From: Vermamoeba vermiformis
Lineage: Eukaryota
Direction: 5' to 3'
Assembly (NCBI GenBank): GCA_045837725.1
Contig: JBEWZL010000053.1
Location: 1-64,000, forward strand
Length of the DNA: 64,000 nt
This document shows, piece by piece, positions 1 to 11,955 of the stretch (its first letter is position 1; every line of letters begins with the position of its first letter). A program made the translations under genes and the position numbers. The notes under the pieces were generated by a model. The model saw only the letters and a program-made list of their open reading frames with translations, was not told the DNA's origin and did no database searches.

Positions 1-2052
1 TAACCTTTCTATTATTAATTTAGGTGCCCGTTAATAAATATTATGACGAAATGGGATGCAATAAATACAATTGATTGATAGGACACTTTTCAGTAATCAC
101 GACACGAGCTGTGGATATTCTACGAGATATTTAAATATTTAATTTTATATTTTAATATTTTATGTATTGTTTGATATAAAACGGCGACTTATTACAGAAT
201 GATTAATAATAACATCCCCTTCGTCCCAGATCCGCCAGCAATTTCGGTGCATACATTATTTTGTATACACAGATTATAATGTACACGAAAAAGGAGAACC
301 AATTAGCCAAGTAATTAACAATGTTTTATTCAAACAAAGTGGAGAATACAATGACGTTGGAAAAGAGATCGCTATTCCACGGAAGAACATGTGAGACTAC
401 TGGGGCATCTTTGTGTAGCTCGGATCCAGACTTTTCCGGCTTTTGTTATAGCCCATGCCTCGTAGATCACTTGGTCAAGCGCTGTTGCTGGCGCTAGCTG
501 AACCAACAGTCTTGCCTCTTCTACAGAGAGTCGTACGTACTTGCGGTTTTCAGCGTCGGTAACGCAAACTCTGATGCAACTGCAGGTAGGGTAATTTACT
601 GGGTTCCAGTCCATGTTCATTTGTGGTCGTGTTTTGCTGTTTGAAGTTAAAAAACTTATTTTTTTTTCACCGGTTATTTTGTTACCTTGTCGAAGCCTCG
701 ACAACCAGAGCTCTGTAGACCAAACCAATTAATTGTCAATGTAATTAACAGTGCTGTCTCGGAAACGGATTATCAGGTACTTTAATTCGTGACTGGCAGT
801 CTGACATACGGATGTCAATAAATATTTTTCATTTCAACCCTTCGTTTCTTGAATAATTCTTTTTATTAATGGATATCCCCCCCACCTAGCATCTTTCATA
901 GCGCGTAAGGCTTAGGACACTGACTTACAAGTACGAATAATTTTTTGTATTGTTTTGGATGCAGGTTTTATAGCACTCAAGTGACGCACTACACGGCATA
1001 AATTCAAGTGTAGCACGTTTCGAAATCAAACCTGGCTTGTCAACGCTCAGCTGTAGCCACATTCCTAAAAGTCCTGCAGAGAAATTTTCGGTACGTAAAA
1101 CCTTACATTTTCCAAACCTCTGAAGGGTTAGTTTAGGTCGTAACACGCGAGCTACGAGGTTTGCGAGGGTTTGAAAGCCAGTGCGCACCCGTGGGTTTGC
1201 CAGAGGGATGAGCAAACCCTCTGTTAAAACAACGTAAGTCAAGGAGTATGCCTTGTCACGAATATTACTAACAGCGTTAGCAGTGCACGGAATTAATGCA
1301 TTCATCAATTATTCTTGCCAAGGGCTAGCACAGAGGAACGAGACTCCTGTTTGTATACACAATCGGTGGAATGTATATGACAAACAAATTTGTATACACA
1401 ATTTACAAAATGCACATGTTATTTAAAGTAAATGTCCCTGTTGTACTGTAGACTCTCCTCAGTGTTTCCTTTATTATTCTCGACTGATAAATGCTTAAAA
1501 ATAGGAGCAAATTCCGTTCCCAAGTCCTAAAGATGCAAGAGCACTTGTATATATACATAACAGATTTCGTATACACATTCACTCTTTTTTAATGCGGACT
1601 GGGTAACAACTGGAAGGAAGAAGAATAACACAATTTAAGTATATTAATAGGCATTTCCTAAAAATGCTTTGAAAAAAGCGTTCATGGAACCATAAGCAAT
1701 CAAACTTTAAATTTTGTATATACTTTTTTATTTTGTATACGCATTACACGGCAAGTTTCATTGTTTAATGTCACAAAAGCCTATAAACCTAAGCCAGCCT
1801 ACTCCTAAGGCTATATATAATTCTAAGTAAATTAAAGTTAAACTTGTCTCTTAGTGTTTTTATTTTGGCATGCTTTTCAATGCAAAAGTGACTGCAAAAA
1901 GACAAAAAAAGTCAAAATTTAACAAAAAAGGGGTTTAACTGGACTTTAAACTCTATAACCCTTAAATTTCTATAACCCAGAAGCCTACTATAATTTGTTT
2001 ATTTTAGTAACTTTTCAAGGCTAGCCCTATATGGCCAGGCCATTTTACATAT

Positions 2053-2074
2053 GGCAAGATCCACGAGTCTCAGC
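2053..2074 (+). repeat. Left terminal inverted repeat
   Basis: GGCAAGATCCACGAGTCTCAGC, exact reverse complement of 7258-7279. Confidence 0.95.
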
Positions 2075-2267
2075 TTATGAGAAATTGTAATATGTAAGCA
2101 GAACAAGAAGAAAACTGTAAAAGTTTAACAAAAATAAAGGCGTTCGATGATGAAACTGCAAAATTTAAAGATAAAAGGAGTAGTAAAATAAATTCTAAGA
2201 ATACCAATTTATTTAGTTAGTAGAGCAAAAACCTTCGAGCAAGGATAAAAAGATCTACAAAAAGTGC

Positions 2268-4993
2268 TTAGTCGTCTTCTTCTGTTAAAGCAAATCGACG
2301 GACTGGTGACATTTGCCCGTCTTCTGCATCACCAACATCAGCTTCTTCAACATTGTTGTTGTTGAATTTCGGCATTGGAGTGGTTCCTCGGACACTTGGA
2401 GTAACAGGCAACAAAGGCTCATCAAAGGCGTCTGGCAAAAAAGCTTTGGCTGGAGTGCTTGGCTGTTGGGCTGTCCCCTCAGGTGCAGCAAGAGAGGACA
2501 CAGCAAGGGCAGTAGAGACAGCTAGAGCAGCCTGGGGGTCATCGACAGAGCGGCTCAAAACTCGGCAAACGTGGGCTTTAATCTTGTTCTTCAGTGGGCC
2601 GTTGGTGATGTAGCCCACGTAGCTGCGGCTTGATAGGGCAGCAGCAATGTAACCGGTCTGTAAATGAGTTAGTAAAGCAAGGCGAAGGATACAACACGAC
2701 ATACACCAGATAAGTTGTTGAGCTCCAAAATAACACCATCAGCAGGAGTGTACACAGAGAAGATGAAGCACAGAACCTGGACTGGAGGTTGGCGGGGAAA
2801 CAATGCCGTTGAGGTCAAACTGAGCTTTTCACGAAGCATCTCGTAAGCAGGAGGTGTTTTAAAGACACCATGCTGCCAATTTGGGTTGTAATGCCCATGC
2901 TTGACCCAGTTACCTTCATTGGTATTAAAACATGGAGCATTGCCAGCACGAAGGCGCAAGAAGTAGAAATCCCACGTGGTTTGAACAGGATTAATGCCAG
3001 TGAAGGACTTAACAGGAGGGGCGCTCAGGCATGCAGTGTACTTGAACTCGAAAACCAAAGGATTCTGTGGTTGAGAAAGCGAGTGAAAAATTGAATACGC
3101 TGCGCTTGGATCCGCAAGAATGACCAGGCGAGAAGAAAGGTGCATGCATTTCAGAATTGGCTGCAGCAAGGAGTTGCGGAATTGCTCAGCATTTTCAAGC
3201 ACCAAGAAAATAAGATCTGCTCTGAGCTGCAGCTGAATATGAGAGAAGGAGTTCACCACTCGGAAATGCGGGTCAAAATGCTTTTCAACATTAGCCACCA
3301 AGTCTTTGCGGAAGGGAACATCCTCGTCCACGTCACTCTCAGATTCATCATTGCCAGGCGCAGTAATGACAGCGCCTTCACTATCGTCCTTCTTCTGTGA
3401 AACGTAATGAGAAAAGAAAAACGCGCGGCGCGTTTTTGGTGACTTACATTTGTACGTGACTTTTTTTGTGGTGGTTCTGCATCTGCAGGTGCAGCAGGGT
3501 CGCGGTCTCGTTTTCGGGATTCCTTTTCTGGAACAGGGAGATCAACTGGCAAGCGTTCTTTAAGAACCTTATCTGCACCTTTCGTGTTCTTTGAGGCAGT
3601 AGGTGACTTCTACAAGGAGTCAGATTGGTGGGGGCAAAAACGCGTGGCGTGTTTTTAAGGGTACTTACAGGTACTGTTTTTGTTGTTGCAACAGCTTTGA
3701 CTTTCACGCTTTTCACAGCAACAGAGGCGTTCAAATCTTTGATGAAGGCTTGCATTGCAGCACTCTCCAAATCATTTGCCGTAGCGGTCTCCAATGCTTC
3801 AAAAGTTCCAGCTTGGATTGCTTCCACATAGTCTTCCAGAAGATCCGCATTGGGTGCCTGCTGCCTGACATAATCAACCATTGAAACAATGTGTGCTTGA
3901 CGAGCAACGATGCCAGAAAACTCTGAAAATGATTAGATGGTAAAAACGTGCCACGCGTTTTTGCTTACCAGTCAAACTTGCTTTGTTGTCGTTTTTGATA
4001 GCCCACGACACAAATTCCTCAATGGCAGCAAGTTTGTACATATCGTCCAACTTCCAGAATGCTTTGTTCTCAGTGATGCAAGATAGCTTCATGGGGTTTT
4101 TGTAGCCGTACTTCAGATGCAACTCCTTGAGTTTCTTGTAAACAGCGTTTTGGGCAATGTCTTCCGCTCCTTTGTTTGTTAGCTTGTTGTATGCGGTGTA
4201 CAACTTCTTGGCCAAGTCCAACGCGAGCCCATCACGTTTTCCCTGTCGTCCTCGTTAGAAAGAATTATTGGCCTTCAAATATTGCTACTTACAGACAACT
4301 GGTGAATGCGTGCCCAGTTTACCGTGACCTTTTTTCCCTTCGTTTTTGTTCGTACACCAGGCATTTCAAGGTACCGAATTAGCTTCTGCAGGTACTCGAA
4401 CCAAGGGGCTTTGGCAGTACCATCTTGCGCTTTAGCATTATTTGCACCAGCAAGAACCTCGCGTTCTTCTTCAGTCATGGTAACTCCGTTGAGAGAAGCC
4501 TTCAAAATGAGGCATGGCCACTCTTCAATATCACTACAAAAAGTTAGCTAGAGCAAAAACGCGTCACGCGTTTTTACTCACTGGCTTTGTAAAACTTCAA
4601 AACGGTGATTTCCACCAAGAATTAGGTACTCGGGCTTCTTATCTTTGTTAATTTTGTCTTCTTCGGGAAGCTCTTGTAACAGAAAAGGCTCGCTATAATC
4701 CAAGCCTTTGTCGAAGTTTCCTCCACCCATCTTTATTATTTGTTGCTCGATGGTTTTTTTGCCTTCTTCCGTCACCAAACGGTAGTTTCCTGAATGGAGG
4801 TTAGTAAAAACGCGCCACGCGTTTTTGCTCCCGTACCTCGTTTTGTCATTTGAGACAGCAGAACATTGCGTGGCTTATCGTACTTCAGCCATTTCTGGAG
4901 CAGTTCTATGGGCTTGTCTATGTTGACAAGCTGTTGTTCCTCGTCTGTATCCTCCTGTTTCTTGGAGGTATTTCTTTTATTTGTGTTGCTCAT
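2268..4993 (-). CDS. Transposon accessory protein: N-terminal ParB/Srx-like domain plus C-terminal degenerate beta-class N4/N6 DNA methyltransferase fold (8 exons)
   Basis: Removing introns 4790-4836, 4534-4581, 4243-4292, 3923-3968, 3610-3668, 3395-3447 and 2658-2704 (all GT-AG) gives one continuous frame. ParB-like: GNYRLVTEEGKKTIEQQI...YLILGGNHRFEVLQSHDIEEWPCLIL. MTase-like: ADLIFLV...FPRQPPVQVLCFIFSVYTPADGVILELNNLSGTGYIAAALSSRSYVGY. Confidence 0.75.
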
Positions 4994-5718
4994 GTTTGAA
5001 GGGAATGAATAATGACCGCATAAAAATTTTTTTTGTTCGACGGTTTGACCAAACGTTGACCGTTGACCAAACGTTGACCAGGTCCAAAAGGAAAAACGCG
5101 CCACGCGTTTTTGCCATTCATATGGTTAATCACAACAACAATGGACACACCTCTTCTTGATGTCGTTCTTGCTCTACCTCCGCACGAAATTGAGCCTGCT
5201 ATTTTGGACGTTTTGCAGCATCATCGCATCACTCTGCACTTGCGTGTTCTCAAGCATGCTTCTGTCCAGCATGCTCTGCTATCAAATTACGGTAGATCCC
5301 TGCGGATTGCGGCAAGCAGTGAACGCACTTCAGGGTTCTTCCGTGGATCTTTGTCCTCAATGCTTCACGCTTCGATTGACAAGGCAGCAGTTGCTTCATT
5401 GCTTAATGTATCACCAAGTAGCGTTTCTCGTGCGCTTTCCATTTCAAATGAACGCTATCACAATGGGTTAATGACTGGCATTCACAACAAGTTTGCTTCC
5501 CCCACCAAGTACAAAGTTAGTCGACTTCCCGTGGCCACCTCCATTGTGACTGATTGGATAATTTCACACTGTCGCCCTTCTGCAAACTCGGCAAATGTTG
5601 TTCGCAATCGCAATGCTGATGGCACATGGTCTTATGAAATAATGCACTACCGCAATGAATCAATTGCAGAGCTGTTCACCAAGTACAAGGCAGGTACCAA
5701 AAACGCGTGACGCGTTTT
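3417..5718. repeat. Seven dispersed copies of the 21-bp palindrome AAAAACGCG-NNN-CGCGTTTTT
   Basis: Copies at 3417-3437, 3636-3656, 3942-3962, 4555-4575, 4806-4826, 5092-5112 and 5699-5718, each with 0-1 mismatch. Six lie in introns and one in the divergent promoter. Confidence 0.95.
4994..5140. promoter_or_regulatory. Bidirectional promoter of the transposon genes, with TTGACCAAACGTTGACC direct repeats and one palindrome copy
   Basis: 147 bp between divergent ATGs, tandem GTTGACC(AAAC) repeats at about 5044-5080, palindrome at 5092-5112. Confidence 0.55.
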
Positions 5719-7179
5719 CTAATACCCTTCCTTCAGGTGCAACATCAAGCAGATGCTGTTGGCAAATCTACGTTCTATTCACTTGTGCCCAAATGTGTTT
5801 ATCTTCAGCCCTACTATTCTGGCCTCTGCCCAACATGTGCATCTGATAAACATTGGCAAATGATGCTTAATCGAAACAGGCGCTCTTGGCATGCCGACTG
5901 CCACTGCCAGTGCACCTACTGCACAGTTTGCAACCATGCTCTGTCATGCCCTGCTGATTGTGTTTGCAAAGGTGATGAGTGTCCTATTGAAATGTCAAAC
6001 ATTCCACAACAATGGATTGTTCCTCAGGCCAGCAAGGCTCTGCGCAATGACCGTGACAAGCATGCCCCAAATCAAATGGTACATGTATGGCAGCAAGGCA
6101 CGCGCCGCCAGTTCATGGAGAATTGCAGTCTTGTTGCTGAAAGGTGCACTGATCACAAGCTTCATGTTTCTTGGCAAAAGCAAGTTATTTCAACACTTAA
6201 GAAAAAGCTTCCTTGGAACACTGTAATGATGCGCTGGGATTTCTTGATGAACTATTCCCATGTTAGCTCAGTTGAAGTGGGCAATGCTTTCTATGGGCGC
6301 CGCCAGTCTACTGTTCTAATTGCCACTGTCTGGTATCATGGACCTGACAGTACGCCAGAATCCCCAAAAATCACCAAAACCTACCATGCATTTGTCAGCC
6401 CTTACCTGTCCCATTCTTCTTTGGTTTTTCAGAAAGCATTTGCTGCACTACTTCCACAATTGGATTTGCACACAGATGTTGTCAACTGCATCATTCTCTC
6501 CGATGGTGGCATGCAGCATTTTAAAAACAGAATCTCAATGCATTGGGGAACAACTGTCTTCAACAAGTTCAACATCCGCTTACGTTGGATAATTGACCCT
6601 GCTTACCATGGCAAGGGTGAATGTGATGGCCGTGGTGCTAAGCTGAAAAAGAAAGCTAAAATTCATGTTCTCAAGGAAGATGGTTTCCTTGATACTCCAG
6701 AACAGCTAGCCAATTATTGGAATACAGTGCCAGGTGGCACTTCTTCGTTTCTCAACATAGACTGGGAGGACACAGAACAGGATGTGCAGACGATAAATGG
6801 CATTAAAGCCTGCTATGACTTCTGCTTCTCACGCAATGAAACTCAGTTGTACATGAGGAAATGGCCTTGTGTGTGTGCCGACTGCCTTGACTTTAACTTT
6901 GGCAGTTGCAAGCGAGGTGCTCAAGTAGGAGAATGGCTGTTTCGTCAGACAAAGCCAACCAATGTAAATCACCCAAAAGGACTCAACCCTCCTGTTGTTG
7001 TGGAAGAAGAAGTCGAACACTGTGAGGTTGAGAAAATTGTTGGTAAACGTATGTTCAAAGACAAAGTACAGTATCAGATTAAGTGGCTTGGTTTCACCGA
7101 AGAGTACAATGAATGGAAGTACGAAGATGAAATGGATTGCGAAGACCTTGTTCTTGCTTTTGAAAACGATCACAAATAA
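5141..7179 (+). CDS. Sola2-like DDD transposase with Cys-rich region and C-terminal chromodomain (2 exons)
   Basis: GKSTFYSLVP, CPTC/Cys cluster, catalytic Asp codons at about 6238 (WDF), 6502 (SDG) and 6625 (CDG), CxCxxC motif, chromodomain EVEKIVGKR..KVQYQIKWLGF.EEYNEWKYEDEMDC. One intron at about 5690-5736. Confidence 0.85.
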
Positions 7180-7257
7180 AAATGCAACCCTTTTATTTTT
7201 GTACAATAACAGCAATTTCAACATAAAAATAAATTCTTGTAAATATTGGCGGTTTTG

Positions 7258-7279
7258 GCTGAGACTCGTGGATCTTGCC
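7258..7279 (-). repeat. Right terminal inverted repeat
   Basis: GCTGAGACTCGTGGATCTTGCC followed by ATAT. Confidence 0.95.
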
Positions 7280-7299
7280 ATATATGAATAATCAAAAAC

Positions 7300-9096
7300 A
7301 TGACACAATCAGCAGAAAACCAAAGGAGGTTTTTAGGGCATTCAACCCCACTGATGATACTAAAGGTAACTTAAATGATATTGATTCTTATAAAATTAAT
7401 CCAAAAAAACTCAATCAATAGCTATATAAACTAATCTGCTTACTTGTAGTCTCAATCAAGCAGTGAAAGGCCTTTGCTGAGAAAGTCTACAAGCAGACTG
7501 GTGAAAGAATCCAACAAAAAGCCACCCAGAATATTCATTGCCATGAAAAGAAGTACAATGTGTGAGTGTTTCTTCCTGGTGAGATCATGTGAGTGGATGT
7601 AGGCAAACAGTCAAAATTGAAGAAAAAACGGGAAGTAAAGAAGGCAATAGTTGTAGTGATACTTACCAATAACTACTATCTCATCGAATTTTGGTGAAGG
7701 AGATCAGCAAGGAAAGCAAAAAGAGTTTGGCACGAACAACTTGAGTTGTATTTCAAGAATGTCACATAGAACTTTGTTGGCATCCAAAAATATTTTTGAA
7801 TTAACTTCATCGACAACTACTTCAAATCTTTTTTTTACATCCTTGTTCACTTGATTTTTTAAGTCTACTAATTTATCTATTCCAGGCAAAACTTCATCCA
7901 GCTCACCAAGTTGCCGAAAGGTCTTGTAAGCATCATCACTCATTAAGCCTTCCATTTTGGCTAGTAGCAATTGTAAACAACTATTTTAAGCTTATTATCT
8001 ATACCTTTTTACAATACATTTTGCCTCTCTTGCTTGGCAACGTCAGTTGGGGTGCTGCATTAGTTAACATCCATTGCCGAACAGCAGCTAATATTGGATG
8101 AATAGCTTTGCAAATACACGTTGCTACCTCTTCAATTGATAATTGTTCATTAACAAGCAAATGGTCAAGCATCTGCAGCAGTCCCTCAATCCTCTTCATT
8201 CAGAACCATTTGGTGGCTACAAGTCCAGCTGGAACTCTATGCCTACCTGGCAAGTTTCTATTTTGTTGCTGTTGCATGCTGAATAATAAAATTCAACTGA
8301 TTTACAAAACATAATTAAATTTTATTTTTACCAAATTAGTACATGACTATCACGCTACATCATGAACTGCACAAACTTAATTAAATATAGTACCTTGCTC
8401 TTTCTTTTTCTCTTTTCACTGCAAACCAGAATTGGACACGACATACCTTGGATTTGATACAATAACTCCATTTGAAATGACCTTGGCGAAGCTCCAAGTA
8501 ATATGGATTGTTGTTTGTGTCTACTAATGTTTTGTTACTGATGTCCTTTCCGAACACGGTAGTGATAAGTTGTGTAGAATTGAAAACTCCACGGACACGT
8601 GTACTGCTTTGTGTTTGGTTTCCTTTGAGCCTCTCCTTCAAAACAGTCCATTTTAACTCTGACGCATCGAAATTGGCAAACAACAGATTTGCAAAGGCAA
8701 CGCTGGGCAACTAATAAATTAATTAATTTATTCAATTAATAATATGTATTTCACTTACCCAAAACTGAAACCTTGCTCGTGGCCTTCCATTGCATCTTTT
8801 TCCCTATTTGGCCTTCGATATAAGCATGAGCCTCATCCGCCACCAAACTTGAGCCAGCGTCGTTATTCACCAAATTTTCCAAAATAGTGCTCTCATGCAT
8901 TATGTGTGCTGTCCTAGGAGTGAGGCGACGACGTGAAACAGCCCGCAATGCTCGTCTTAGTTCTTCATCTTCAGTTCGGCGACGGATGGGACATTGGAAA
9001 CCCCTACGCAGCTCTGGGGTGGCTCTTCTAGCAGGCAAAACTCGTGCACCAGATGAGACGCTGAGTTGCACTAAAGTAGCTTCAGTTGAAGACATG
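7300..9096 (-). pseudogene. Degenerate multi-exon gene, possibly an older transposase-like gene interrupted by the Sola2-like insertion
   Basis: Fragmented minus-strand ORFs (8751-9155, 8381-8710, 7999-8199, 7704-7970) with stops. The segment MSDDAYKTFRQLGELDEVLPGIDKLVDLKNQVN resembles the 'S..Y..lR...lP' N-terminal motif of Transib/RAG/P-type transposases. Part of the region appears CpG-poor by eye. Confidence 0.3.
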
Positions 9097-10892: not shown

Positions 10893-11955
10893 ATGGAACC
10901 AACAACATTATCACCCGAAGCATTGGCTAAAGTAAGTCGAATCTGTCACCTCTAACAAATAGAGTGTCAAGATTTGTTCAATTTTACGGCCATAATTTAA
11001 TATTGCCGCAGATCGAAGCCAACCGTCAAGAAGCGCTCGCTAAGAAGCAACAGGCCGAGGAACGGAAGAAAGCGCAGATCGAAGCCCAGATCGAAACCAA
11101 TCGTCAAGAAGCGCTCGCTAAGAAGCAACAGGCTGAGGAACGGAAGAAAGCGCATATAAGGGTAATTACACCATATTACTCAACTTGATAAGCGCCGTTG
11201 TCTAATTCCCGGAAAAGTCATTGATTGCTGAACTTCTCTTCCTGTTTAGTTGCAAGAAGGCGTCGTGCACCTTAAACAAGTAGTGAGACCACAAGAACAA
11301 ATTCAATTGTACGCTGATATCGCTGAAGGTGCCAAAACATACGCGGCAAAGCAAGCGAGGAACCGGAAGAGCAATTTCAAAAAGATCTTGACTTACAACT
11401 GGGAGCGAGACGCAGCCAAAGTTCCCGACAGCTTCGAATTCTTCAGCACACTGGCGTGTAAAGAAGCGAGTACCGTATGCAGCACGATCCCACCAGCGTT
11501 CAAGCCCAATTACGTCACTGCCTTTTGCTACCCCCAGAAAGACGGGCGATTAAGAGGTAGGCGCTTCATAAATTCTCACACCACTTACAAAATAACGCAG
11601 GCCACGTGGACAAGGTGCTTGGTTGGGTTGTCTTATTCTCGCTTGGGTGCACGTGTAAGTTTTGGATAAAAGGCCCACAGATGCAACGGAAACAAAGTAA
11701 GCCAAATTTACAACTGTCAATATTAACATTAATTATAATAATTTTCTAGCAATCGACTTTGAGTCGGGAGACGTGCTTGTATTCAATGGCGGTACCGAAT
11801 ACGGCATCCAGCATGGAATCGATACCATCGTGCCCCAATCATGTCCTGAACACTTGAATAAGGACTTGGCGCACTGTAGAGTTAGTCTTCAATTTCGTCA
11901 AACCTTGCGAAATGATATTGTCCGTAAATTCGGGTACCCGAAAAAGAAGCACTAG
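10893..11955 (+). CDS. AlkB-like 2OG-Fe(II) dioxygenase with duplicated N-terminal RPA-binding-like helix
   Basis: Spliced YP..DGRLRGHVD (HxD), VVLFSLGC, ESGDVLVFNG, HGI, RVSLQFRQ. N-terminal LSPEALAKIEANRQEALAKKQQ, repeated. Confidence 0.8.

What the first reader, a model, noticed from the sequence alone, without database searches (positions are those of the whole stretch)
2053..7279. Complete DNA transposon pairing a chromodomain-transposase with a ParB + methyltransferase-fold accessory gene and its own palindromic operator array
Seen in the sequence: perfect 22-bp TIRs, an ATAT duplication, two intact divergent genes, and seven copies of one palindrome restricted to non-coding positions. 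Established: Sola elements are DDD transposons with 4-bp TSDs that generally encode only a transposase. Bacterial ParB proteins load on clustered palindromic parS sites. Arabidopsis VANDAL elements encode VANC anti-silencing proteins that bind motifs in their own non-coding DNA. Inference: this may be a self-contained chromatin-targeting or anti-silencing system, in which the accessory protein recognises the CG-rich palindromes and the chromodomain reads host chromatin. I do not know of this architecture being described.
Basis: partly seen in the sequence, partly recalled or inferred. Interest (0 to 1): 0.92.

Follow-up and report, generated by a model that had tools for sequence, protein, structure and literature searches.

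The report
Compact transposon with methylase-like helper gene
This is an intact 5.2-kb jumping gene that carries, besides its chromatin-reading transposase, a second gene resembling a DNA methyltransferase and seven copies of a CG-rich palindrome hidden in its introns, a layout reported recently in algae.

Summary
Window 2053-7279 is a complete DNA transposon with perfect 22-bp inverted ends, ATAT on both sides and two intact divergent genes. It carries seven copies of a 21-bp palindrome. All seven are non-coding: six in introns, one between the two start codons. None occurs elsewhere in the 64 kb.

The transposase ends in an HP1-type chromodomain. The C-terminal domain of the 791-aa accessory protein is homologous to N6/N4 DNA methyltransferases. 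Three weak sequence lines and a shuffle-controlled profile comparison support this. Its catalytic motif is not canonical.

The ParB call got no statistical support. It rests on a GGNHR-like motif and on precedent.

A diverged relative from a metagenome has the same gene pair, similar ends and CpG-decayed relics of the palindrome at equivalent sites. The array is therefore an old, conserved part of the element.

The architecture is already in print. An Ectocarpus Sola1 family has an opposite-strand ParB plus methyltransferase gene. Red-algal Plavaka elements have a ParB-like accessory beside inverted-repeat arrays.

Verdict: a new, compact variant of a known kind. The Sola assignment and protein-palindrome binding remain untested.

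The parts
2049..2052 (.). Left copy of the ATAT target-site duplication
   Evidence: Read; identical to 7280-7283.
2053..2074 (+). Left terminal inverted repeat, 22 bp
   Evidence: perfect inverted match to 7258-7279, and no other copy in the window at up to 3 mismatches.
2268..4993 (-). Accessory gene of 791 aa with 8 exons: 4993-4837, 4789-4582, 4533-4293, 4242-3969, 3922-3669, 3609-3448, 3394-2705, 2657-2268 (stop included)
   Evidence: Manual GT-AG model, with an open frame. The exon 7/8 junction matches the uninterrupted homologue P0015. Exons 1-4 are found by tblastn in L001/L002. No RNA support.
2505..3280 (-). N6/N4 DNA-methyltransferase-like domain (about aa 471-713, interrupted by intron 7). 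DPHF sits at 3263-3274 where hhalign places DPPY; FPRQPPVQ at 2777-2800; LSGTGY at 2649-2713
   Evidence: hhalign against 6 PF01555 enzymes scored 29.4 against a null of 13.6 +/- 2.6, and 0 of 100 shuffles reached it. Homologue P0015 hits PHROG methyltransferase at E 9.8e-5 and NCBIfam PRK13699 at E 0.12. ESM Atlas leads point to PF01555 clusters at 0.90 and 0.88. There is no Pfam hit.
4599..4625 (-). LILGGNHRF motif in exon 2, the basis of the ParB/Srx reading of the N-terminal region
   Evidence: Coordinates. hhalign places it opposite the DGxHR motif of phage ParB N-domains, but the score is within the null. No family library hit.
3417..3437 (.). Palindrome copy in accessory intron 6 (3447-3395)
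3636..3656 (.). Palindrome copy in accessory intron 5 (3668-3610); one CpG reads TpG
   Evidence: 1 mismatch.
3942..3962 (.). Palindrome copy in accessory intron 4 (3968-3923); one CpG reads TpG
4555..4575 (.). Palindrome copy in accessory intron 2 (4581-4534)
   Evidence: it forms a 13-bp RNA stem.
4806..4826 (.). Palindrome copy in accessory intron 1 (4836-4790)
5045..5079 (.). Tandem 18-bp direct repeat (1.9 copies) in the divergent promoter spacer
   Evidence: (D8).
5092..5112 (.). Palindrome copy in the 147-bp spacer between the two start codons, 29 bp upstream of the transposase ATG
5141..7179 (+). Transposase gene of 663 aa: exon 1 5141-5689, intron 5690-5736 (GC-AG), exon 2 5737-7179. 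Candidate catalytic acids lie in RWDFLMNY (6232-6255), LSDGGMQHFKN (6496-6528) and HGKGECDG (6607-6630)
   Evidence: ORFs and coordinates. The invariant D residues come from a 9-sequence alignment. There are 6 database relatives at E <= 0.001. The donor position matches the GT donor of L001. The catalytic role is inferred.
5699..5719 (.). Palindrome copy in the transposase intron
7024..7167 (+). C-terminal HP1-type chromodomain of the transposase
   Evidence: Pfam PF00385 at E 3.9e-9, 36.7 bits against a cut-off of 25.1. PDB HP1beta at E 1.1e-12. Family profile against CBX5 at E 6.6e-15.
7258..7279 (-). Right terminal inverted repeat, 22 bp
7280..7283 (.). Right copy of the ATAT target-site duplication
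   Evidence: In DNA run X1, 2 contigs follow the element through 7283 and then diverge from this flank (table 7).

Best explanation
Window 2053-7279 is an intact, probably autonomous cut-and-paste DNA transposon. It belongs to a rare family of the type described as Sola1 with a ParB-methyltransferase accessory gene.

Shown here:
- 22-bp inverted ends with a 4-bp ATAT duplication.
- A 663-aa transposase with invariant acidic residues and a C-terminal HP1-type chromodomain.
- A divergently oriented 791-aa accessory gene whose C-terminal domain is homologous to beta-class N6/N4 DNA methyltransferases.
- Seven copies of a 21-bp CG-rich palindrome, confined to introns and the shared promoter spacer. 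Relics at equivalent sites in a diverged relative show the array is conserved.

Inferred:
- The transposase excises and inserts the element at ATAT sites.
- The chromodomain biases where it lands or which chromatin it is recruited to.
- The palindromes act as DNA, not RNA. They are the element's own cis sites, placed in introns because a compact element has almost no other non-coding room.
- The accessory protein recognises them through its N-terminal or middle region. It then either methylates the element's DNA (N6-adenine or N4-cytosine) or, if catalytically dead, occupies these CpG-rich sites. Either way it would control the divergent promoter or shield the element from host silencing.

My odds for each step: real mobile element 0.95; methyltransferase homology 0.8; ParB-like N-domain 0.5; palindromes bound by the accessory protein 0.35.
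For: Ends and duplication.

Gene models: open spliced frames. The uninterrupted homologue P0015 bridges the exon 7/8 junction.

Chromodomain.

Methyltransferase homology:
- P0015 against PHROG 'methyltransferase', E 9.8e-5.
- P0015 against NCBIfam PRK13699 DNA methyltransferase, E 0.12, same region.
- ESM Atlas clusters carrying PF01555, scores 0.90 and 0.88 (leads only).
- A colinear hhalign against 6 PF01555 enzymes scored 29.4, against a column-shuffle null of 13.6 +/- 2.6 with maximum 22.4. 0 of 100 shuffles reached it.

Mobility and family:
- In DNA run X1, 188 contig pieces were laid on the stretch: 115 at >=99%, 50 at 95-99% and 23 at 90-95% identity. Summed depth is higher inside the element than on the right flank. 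One contig starts exactly at 7280. Two contigs leave the window's flank after 7283.
- Metagenome locus L001/L002 has the transposase at 52-75% aa identity and accessory exons 1-4 at 58% in the same divergent layout. Its right end differs from the TIR at 3 of 22 positions and is followed by ACAT.
- L004 (46%) keeps a homologue of accessory exon 1 facing away from the transposase.
- P0012, P0019 and P0020 are each recorded with a longest contig of 4886 nt in the same source, consistent with one contig carrying both genes.

Palindromes:
- 7 of 7 are in the element and non-coding.
- The half-site AAAACGCG occurs 12 times in the window, all 12 inside the palindromes.
- L001 has relics in accessory intron 1 (three), intron 2, the spacer and the transposase intron (read by eye in the printed sequence). 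Three of them match a degenerate CpG-decay pattern, against 0.125 expected.
- 27 of the element's 182 CpGs lie in the 147 bp of palindromes, while the element as a whole has CpG o/e 0.69.

Precedent: the Ectocarpus Sola1-1_Ec32 accessory gene (PMC12477816, passages) and Bostrychia Plavaka PAG2/PAG3 with inverted-repeat arrays (passages).
Against: - No transcript evidence. Three RNA-seq runs with the same species label gave zero depth over 2094-7600. Splicing and expression are therefore unshown, and the strain sampled may lack the element.
- ParB: there was no hit in Pfam, PHROGs, NCBIfam, the ESM Atlas or the PDB profile search. hhalign against 8 phage ParB N-domains scored 11.8 against a null of 12.6 +/- 2.5, and 58 of 100 shuffles reached it.
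- Pfam itself does not detect PF01555 in the window's protein or in P0015.
- Where hhalign puts DPPY, the window has DPHF, P0014 has EPHF and P0015 has ANHY. That part of the alignment is low-confidence, so catalytic activity is doubtful.
- Both AlphaFold models were unusable, with pLDDT 45.1 and 36.8, so there is no fold evidence.
- The first aromatic-cage position of the chromodomain is Cys here. Which residues form the cage is recalled, not tested.
- Only one full copy was seen directly. L001 is truncated after accessory exon 4 and has a broken transposase frame, so linkage of the methyltransferase-like domain to the transposase is shown only in this window.
- Sola membership was not tested against reference sequences.
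Confidence: 0.55

Rival explanations
1. The palindromes are binding sites for a host transcription factor. The cores contain one or two ACGCGT hexamers. They would serve as promoter and intronic enhancers for the divergent gene pair, for example coupling expression to a cell-cycle or stress programme. The accessory protein would not touch them.
For: One copy sits 29 bp upstream of the transposase ATG in the shared 147-bp spacer, and the rest lie within 1.7 kb of it. Two copies carry tandem ACGCGT hexamers. No DNA-binding domain was demonstrated in the accessory protein.
Against: The half-site AAAACGCG occurs 12 times in the window, all 12 inside the palindromes, against about 4 expected for the whole window. 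ACGCGT is not enriched in the window overall: 13 found against 13.0 expected, with 8 of the 13 in the element. So there is no sign that the host uses this motif near its own genes here. That rests on only 64 kb of host sequence.
Confidence: 0.2
2. The palindromes act as RNA hairpins inside very short introns (46-59 nt). They would tune splicing efficiency or cause intron retention, giving the element post-transcriptional self-regulation.
For: Six of seven copies are intronic. In four of these six introns the palindrome folds as a 8-13-bp stem. For introns 2 and 6 and the transposase intron, 0 of 200 shuffles fold as well. For intron 1, 12 of 200 do. In intron 2 the stem extends into the donor GTGAGT.
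Against: Introns 4 and 5 carry uncompensated CpG-to-TpG changes and fold no better than shuffles: -3.6 and -4.4 kcal/mol, with 85 of 200 shuffles as good in each case. One copy is outside any intron, in the promoter spacer. The relics in L001 have decayed by CpG transitions without compensation. There are no RNA reads to examine.
Confidence: 0.1
3. The palindromes are passive relics of a tiny palindromic insertion that once spread within the element and created or rode in its introns, in the manner of an introner or MITE. They would have no present function.
For: All copies share one 21-bp core with unrelated flanks. Palindrome-bearing introns are little more than donor, palindrome, branch site and acceptor. 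Two of the seven accessory introns lack the palindrome.
Against: No copy occurs anywhere else in 64 kb. Relics lie at equivalent sites in a lineage with only 52-75% transposase identity. The CpGs of the palindromes are kept in an otherwise CpG-poor element, with 27 of 182 CpGs in 2.8% of its length and an element o/e of 0.69. No target duplications flank the cores.
Confidence: 0.1

Closest known systems
Sola1-1_Ec32 of Ectocarpus (Genome Biol 2025, PMC12477816; passages read)
   Same: A TIR DNA transposon with the transposase and, on the opposite strand, an accessory gene. [quoted passage not shown] They suggest such proteins bind and modify their own transposon.
   Different: That family is 21.5 kb with a 1104-aa accessory protein. 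This element is 5.2 kb with a 791-aa protein so diverged that Pfam sees neither domain. The passages I read mention no chromodomain on that transposase and no intronic palindromes. I could not compare sequences, and the paper's supplements were not available to me.
Plavaka elements of the red alga Bostrychia moritziana, accessory genes PAG2 and PAG3 (bioRxiv 10.1101/2025.02.11.637652; passages read)
   Same: [quoted passage not shown] Arrays of inverted repeats lie next to the ParB-like gene and are read by the authors as self-binding sites.
   Different: They belong to a different transposase superfamily and are giant elements. The methylase is fused to SET and the ParB-like domain to a 2OG oxygenase, on separate genes. 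The repeats are tandem arrays beside the gene, not single copies inside introns.
Phage and prophage ParB-linked amino-methyltransferases, and eukaryotic ParB-HTH plus Dam fusions of chlorophytes and chytrids (Iyer, Zhang and Aravind, BioEssays 2016, PMC4738411; passages read)
   Same: A ParB-type module joined to an amino-methyltransferase, with repeated transfer from prokaryotic mobile elements to eukaryotes.
   Different: Those fusions involve a Dam-type (group 2) methylase, whereas the similarity here is to PF01555 enzymes. No prokaryotic relative of the accessory C-domain was found in 185,579 species genomes by pattern scan.
VANDAL transposons with VANC anti-silencing proteins of Arabidopsis
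   Same: It works like the proposal here. An element-encoded accessory protein recognises short motifs concentrated in the element's own non-coding DNA and changes its epigenetic state.
   Different: VANC is unrelated in sequence and fold class, VANDALs are Mutator-like, and VANC causes loss of methylation rather than carrying a methyltransferase-like domain.
Chromodomain-bearing integrases of Gypsy elements (mentioned in PMC12477816, passages read; the heterochromatin-targeting role is from the title of a reference listed there)
   Same: A C-terminal chromodomain on the enzyme that inserts the element, thought to direct integration to marked chromatin.
   Different: Here the chromodomain is on a DNA-transposon transposase and is HP1-like. 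The first aromatic-cage position is Cys in this lineage and Y or F in five relatives.

Membership tests
Sola superfamily of DNA transposons | 4-bp target-site duplication and terminal inverted repeats (PMC10741241, passage) | tested here: met
   ATAT on both sides and perfect 22-bp TIRs. Other copies in run X1 also run through ATAT before diverging. No empty site was seen.
Sola superfamily of DNA transposons | DDD transposase homologous to Sola1, Sola2 or Sola3 reference transposases | not testable with these tools
   No Sola reference sequence or profile is held. Pfam has none (PMC5751038, passage), and Bao et al. 2009 is not held. Invariant D residues in three conserved blocks are compatible. 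The absence of any Pfam transposase hit fits what says of Sola. The assignment rests on exclusion by TSD length (recalled) and on the Ectocarpus precedent.
ParB/Srx N-terminal domain (PF02195) | Significant match to the family profile or to member sequences | tested here: not met
   There is no hit at E <= 10 in Pfam for exons 2 and 3, nor for the read-through ORF of L001. PHROGs and NCBIfam gave none. The ESM Atlas gave no usable hit. The PDB profile search gave one chance hit at E 1.2. hhalign against 8 phage ParB N-domains lies within the shuffle null, with 58 of 100 shuffles reaching it.
ParB/Srx N-terminal domain (PF02195) | GxxR/DGxHR-type motif after a beta strand (recalled) | tested here: inconclusive
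   LILGGNHRF at aa 108-116 is placed opposite the DGxHR motif of the phage proteins in the hhalign output, but without significance.
N6_N4_Mtase (PF01555), beta-class amino-methyltransferases | Sequence or profile similarity to family members | tested here: met
   hhalign scored 29.4 over 209 columns, and 0 of 100 shuffles reached it. P0015 hits PHROG methyltransferase at E 9.8e-5 and NCBIfam PRK13699 at E 0.12. Pfam's own model gives no hit. The strong part is the motif X to motif I half.
N6_N4_Mtase (PF01555), beta-class amino-methyltransferases | Catalytic (D/N/S)PP(Y/F) motif (recalled) | tested here: not met
   The position aligned to DPPY of YhdJ reads DPHF in the window, EPHF in P0014 and ANHY in P0015. 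This stretch of the alignment has low confidence.
N6_N4_Mtase (PF01555), beta-class amino-methyltransferases | SAM-binding FxGxG motif (recalled) | tested here: inconclusive
   LSGTG in the window and LTGAS in P0015 are aligned to FAGSF of YhdJ.
Chromodomain (PF00385) | Match above Pfam's gathering score | tested here: met
   36.7 bits against a cut-off of 25.1, E 3.9e-9. PF00385 is recorded on 5 of the 6 database relatives. HP1/CBX chains in the PDB reach E 1.1e-12.
Chromodomain (PF00385) | Three-residue aromatic cage for methyl-lysine (recalled) | tested here: inconclusive
   Aligned to HP1beta, the window has C, W and F where HP1beta has Y, W and F. Relatives P0002-P0006 have Y or F at the first position.
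Transposon accessory proteins of the ParB plus DNA-methyltransferase type (Ectocarpus Sola1-1_Ec32) | [quoted passage not shown] | tested here: met
   Both genes lie between the TIRs, with start codons 147 bp apart. The same layout is seen in L001/L002 and, for exon 1, in L004.
Transposon accessory proteins of the ParB plus DNA-methyltransferase type (Ectocarpus Sola1-1_Ec32) | Sequence homology to the published accessory proteins | not testable with these tools
   The published sequences are not held. A full HMMER scan of 1.84 billion representatives with exon 7 found only 4 short relatives, all unnamed.

The most novel reading that the evidence does not exclude
The 21-bp palindromes are parS-like loading or recognition sites for the element's own ParB/methyltransferase-like protein. 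They sit in introns because a 5.2-kb element has no other free DNA. The protein writes a non-5mC mark (6mA or 4mC) on them or physically shields these CpG sites. The transposon would thereby set its own chromatin state, while the HP1-type chromodomain steers insertion. This would be the smallest, sequence-defined and directly testable case of a self-epigenome-writing transposon.
Probability: 0.2. Interest if true: 0.8.

Novelty: new variant of a known kind. Interest (0 to 1): 0.55.

Why it matters
Recent algal genome papers propose that some DNA transposons carry ParB-like and DNA-methyltransferase accessory proteins that bind and modify their own DNA. Nobody has a defined binding site or a small element to test this with.

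This element offers several advantages for such a test:
- It is 5.2 kb and apparently intact.
- It has a precise 21-bp candidate operator in seven copies.
- A diverged relative shows that the sites are conserved.
- Its host sequence in this window is not CpG-depleted, while the element is.

That makes EMSA or DAP-seq, long-read methylation calling and reporter assays straightforward. It also adds a chromodomain-transposase fusion and the idea that introns of a compact element serve as housing for cis sites.

Tried and rejected
- Whole-genome search: no genome is held for this window. The genome search cannot reach the metagenome records.
- PDB sequence searches found nothing for exon 7 or the C-domain profile, and only a chance hit for the N-domain profile.
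- Word-index search for longer relatives of exon 7: none among 1137 candidates.
- Prokaryotic relatives of the C-domain: 29 pattern matches, none confirmed.
I used single exons and the open read-through ORF of L001 instead.
- Rfam and tRNA scans of the window found nothing.
- No RNA holder was listed for the stretch.
- Earlier-findings look-ups gave nothing relevant: searches were empty, and one search returned only prokaryotic ParB-methylase modules.
- Bao et al. 2009, the paper that defined Sola, is not held.
- Paper searches turned up no chromodomain-Sola fusion and no intron-embedded palindromes in a transposon. Supplements were closed and may hold such details for the Ectocarpus and Bostrychia libraries.
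- My first automatic splice search read through real introns and was discarded.
- A contig in run X1 that skips 4581-4802 between two palindromes (table 5) is probably an assembly shortcut across the repeated core. I did not use it.

Full report
**What is there**

The sequence shows a 5,227-bp unit at 2053-7279. It is bounded by a perfect 22-bp inverted repeat. This repeat has no other copy in the 64-kb window even at 3 mismatches, against 0.00 expected. ATAT stands on both sides, at 2049-2052 and 7280-7283. Because ATAT is its own reverse complement, the repeat finder extends the arms to 31 nt at 94%. Beyond ATAT the flanks differ, so a 4-bp duplication is the simplest reading.

**Gene models**

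The + strand carries a transposase gene.
- Exon 1 is 5141-5689 and exon 2 is 5737-7179, giving 663 aa.
- The obvious GT at 5694 paired with the strong acceptor at 5736 breaks the frame.
- The frame closes with a GC donor at 5690. That is the position at which the relative L001 has a GT donor after the same Lys-Tyr codons.
- GT at 5694 with an acceptor at 5749 would also close the frame.

The - strand carries an 8-exon gene of 791 aa (4993 down to 2268). Its seven introns are 46-59 nt, with GT-AG ends and CTAAC-like branch sites (frames checked).
- The exon 7/8 junction is confirmed by P0015, a database homologue that runs through it without interruption.
- Exons 1-4 are recovered by tblastn in a metagenome relative.
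- There is no RNA evidence. Three RNA-seq runs labelled with the same species gave zero depth on 2094-7600, with about 46-48% of each run read.

**The palindrome**

A 21-bp core occurs seven times, and all seven are in the element. It has the form five A, CGCG, three variable bases, CGCG, five T. Shuffles give 0.00 expected.
- Five copies lie in accessory introns 1, 2, 4, 5 and 6.
- One lies in the 147-bp spacer between the two start codons.
- One lies in the transposase intron.
- Non-coding DNA is 859 of 5,227 bp.
- The 8-bp half-site occurs 12 times in the window, all 12 inside these palindromes, against about 4 expected.
- The two imperfect copies (introns 4 and 5) each differ from the consensus by a CpG read as TpG.

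**The transposase**

Only 6 database proteins match exon 2 at E <= 0.001, among 1969 candidates of a 5.8-billion-protein index. PF00385 is recorded on 5 of the 6.

A 9-row alignment shows invariant acidic residues in three blocks: RWDFLMNY, DGGxQHFKN and HGxGECDG. I take these as the catalytic triad by analogy with other RNase-H-like transposases. That is inference.

No Pfam transposase family matches. A paper on fungal transposons says the same of Sola and several other young superfamilies (PMC5751038, passage). Sola is described as having a DDD transposase and 4-bp duplications (PMC10741241, passage).

I could not test homology to Sola references. None is held, and the defining paper is not held either. 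The Sola label is therefore plausible but unverified.

The C-terminus is a clear chromodomain.
- Pfam gives E 3.9e-9, above the gathering score.
- HP1beta gives E 1.1e-12, and the family profile against CBX5 gives E 6.6e-15.
- At the first aromatic-cage position (recalled from HP1 structures) this lineage has Cys, whereas five relatives have Tyr or Phe.

**The accessory protein, C-terminal domain**

Pfam sees nothing in the window's exons or in the homologue P0015. A full HMMER scan of 1.84 billion representatives with exon 7 found only 4 relatives.

Four lines point to a PF01555-type DNA methyltransferase:
1. P0015 matches a PHROG annotated as methyltransferase at E 9.8e-5.
2. P0015 also matches NCBIfam PRK13699 (DNA methyltransferase) at E 0.12, over the same 55 residues.
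3. The ESM Atlas lists PF01555 clusters at 0.90 and 0.88 and a trimethylguanosine-synthase-named cluster at 0.94. These are leads only.
4. I built a profile of five family members and compared it with six phage or E. coli enzymes, each confirmed as PF01555. The alignment is colinear over 209 columns with score 29.4. One hundred column shuffles gave 13.6 +/- 2.6 with a maximum of 22.4.

hhalign's own probability is low (9.8%) because both profiles are thin. The convincing part is the stretch that corresponds to the HPTQKP and FxGxG region of YhdJ.

The position aligned to DPPY reads DPHF here and is not conserved in the family. The domain may bind SAM or DNA without being an active enzyme.

**The accessory protein, N-terminal domain**

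The ParB reading rests on LILGGNHRF (aa 108-116) and the pattern around it. Every test I could run was negative.
- No family hit was found.
- The ESM Atlas gave no usable lead.
- The PDB profile search gave one chance hit.
- The profile comparison with eight phage ParB N-domains scored 11.8 against a null of 12.6 +/- 2.5.
- The AlphaFold model was useless, with pLDDT 36.8.

The eight references are one kind of phage ParB, and the query profile holds only two lineages. This is absence of support rather than disproof. Exon 6 is a low-complexity, basic stretch that looks like a nuclear localisation region (by eye).

**Relatives and mobility**

A metagenome scan found 4 loci.
- L001 and L002 are one locus, 99.98% identical over 4218 bp.
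- That locus has the transposase at 52-75% identity and accessory exons 1-4 at 58% in the same divergent layout.
- Its right end differs from the window's TIR at 3 of 22 positions and is followed by ACAT.
- The copy is decayed. The transposase frame is broken, and the accessory gene gives way to unrelated sequence after exon 4.
- L004 (46% identity) keeps a homologue of accessory exon 1 facing away from the transposase, followed by a Gypsy-type reverse transcriptase.
- P0012 (transposase, 90% identity) and P0019 and P0020 (accessory exons) are each recorded with a longest contig of 4886 nt in the same source. This is consistent with one contig carrying both genes.

In the best DNA run, 188 contig pieces lie on the stretch at three identity levels. 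Summed depth is higher inside the element than on the right flank. One contig starts exactly at 7280, and two contigs leave this flank after 7283. I read this as several diverged copies in that organism. Summed depth is not a copy number.

**The palindrome array is conserved and is DNA-level**

L001 has recognisable relics in accessory intron 1 (three), intron 2, the spacer and the transposase intron (read by eye in the printed sequence). Each has CpG replaced by TpG or CpA. Three of them match a degenerate pattern, against 0.125 expected.

CpG observed/expected values are as follows:

| Sequence | CpG o/e |
|---|---|
| Element in the window | 0.69 |
| Rest of the window | 1.16 |
| Element part of L001 | 0.20 |

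Twenty-seven of the element's 182 CpGs sit in the 147 bp of palindromes. So the sites are kept in a live copy and decay like methylated CpG in a dead one.

As RNA, four of the six intronic copies would form stable stems. The two mutated ones would not, and their changes are not compensated. This argues for a DNA function.

**Comparison with what is known**

- The Ectocarpus transposon survey describes Sola1-1_Ec32, a 21.5-kb family. [quoted passage not shown] The authors suggest such proteins bind and modify their own transposon, and they cite green and red algal cases (PMC12477816, passages).
- The Bostrychia preprint describes Plavaka accessory genes with PF01555 plus SET, and with ParB-like plus 2OG oxygenase. 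It notes inverted-repeat arrays next to the ParB-like gene as likely self-binding sites (passages).
- Iyer and colleagues describe ParB-HTH plus Dam fusions in chlorophytes and chytrids, and phage ParB-linked methylases as sources of eukaryotic enzymes (PMC4738411, passages).

What I did not find in those passages, or in six searches, is threefold: a chromodomain on a transposase of this kind, a compact 5-kb version, or cis sites embedded one per intron. Supplements were closed and might hold such details.

**Verdict**

The methyltransferase-like domain, the chromodomain and the private, conserved palindrome array are real. ParB, Sola membership and protein-palindrome binding are not shown.
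- The claim of an undescribed architecture is wrong.
- This is a new, unusually compact and experimentally convenient variant of a recently recognised kind of transposon.

Noticed in passing
window 1700-2093: In DNA run X1 the left flank of the element has summed contig depth of 3742-4682, against 273 on the right flank. Several loose ends lie near 1992-1994. The element therefore seems to sit next to, or in, a much more abundant repeat.
   Followed up: partly
window 2053-7279 against the rest of the window: The element is CpG-poor (o/e 0.69, with TG and CA in excess), while the surrounding host sequence is not (o/e 1.16). The cause could be TE-targeted cytosine methylation or recent arrival from another host. 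This was not resolved.
   Followed up: partly
window 4581-4802: One X1 contig joins 4580 to 4803, skipping 222 bases between the palindromes of introns 2 and 1. This is either a deletion variant produced by recombination between palindromes or an assembly shortcut.
   Followed up: no
window 5045-5079: A perfect tandem duplication of an 18-bp unit lies in the divergent promoter spacer, next to the spacer palindrome. I saw no counterpart in the L001 spacer (by eye).
   Followed up: no
L004 1-960: Upstream of the remnant accessory exon 1, the contig holds Gypsy-type reverse transcriptase and integrase-end ORFs. In this relative a retrotransposon has apparently replaced or interrupted the accessory gene.
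   Followed up: no
L001 3651-3681: A perfect 15-nt inverted repeat with a 1-nt centre lies where the window has the 3' part of the transposase intron. No AG acceptor is visible there in this decayed copy.
   Followed up: no
window 11009-11154: A 78-bp unit repeated 1.9 times at 95% identity lies in host sequence. It looks like a coding repeat rich in Lys, Glu and Ala codons.
   Followed up: no
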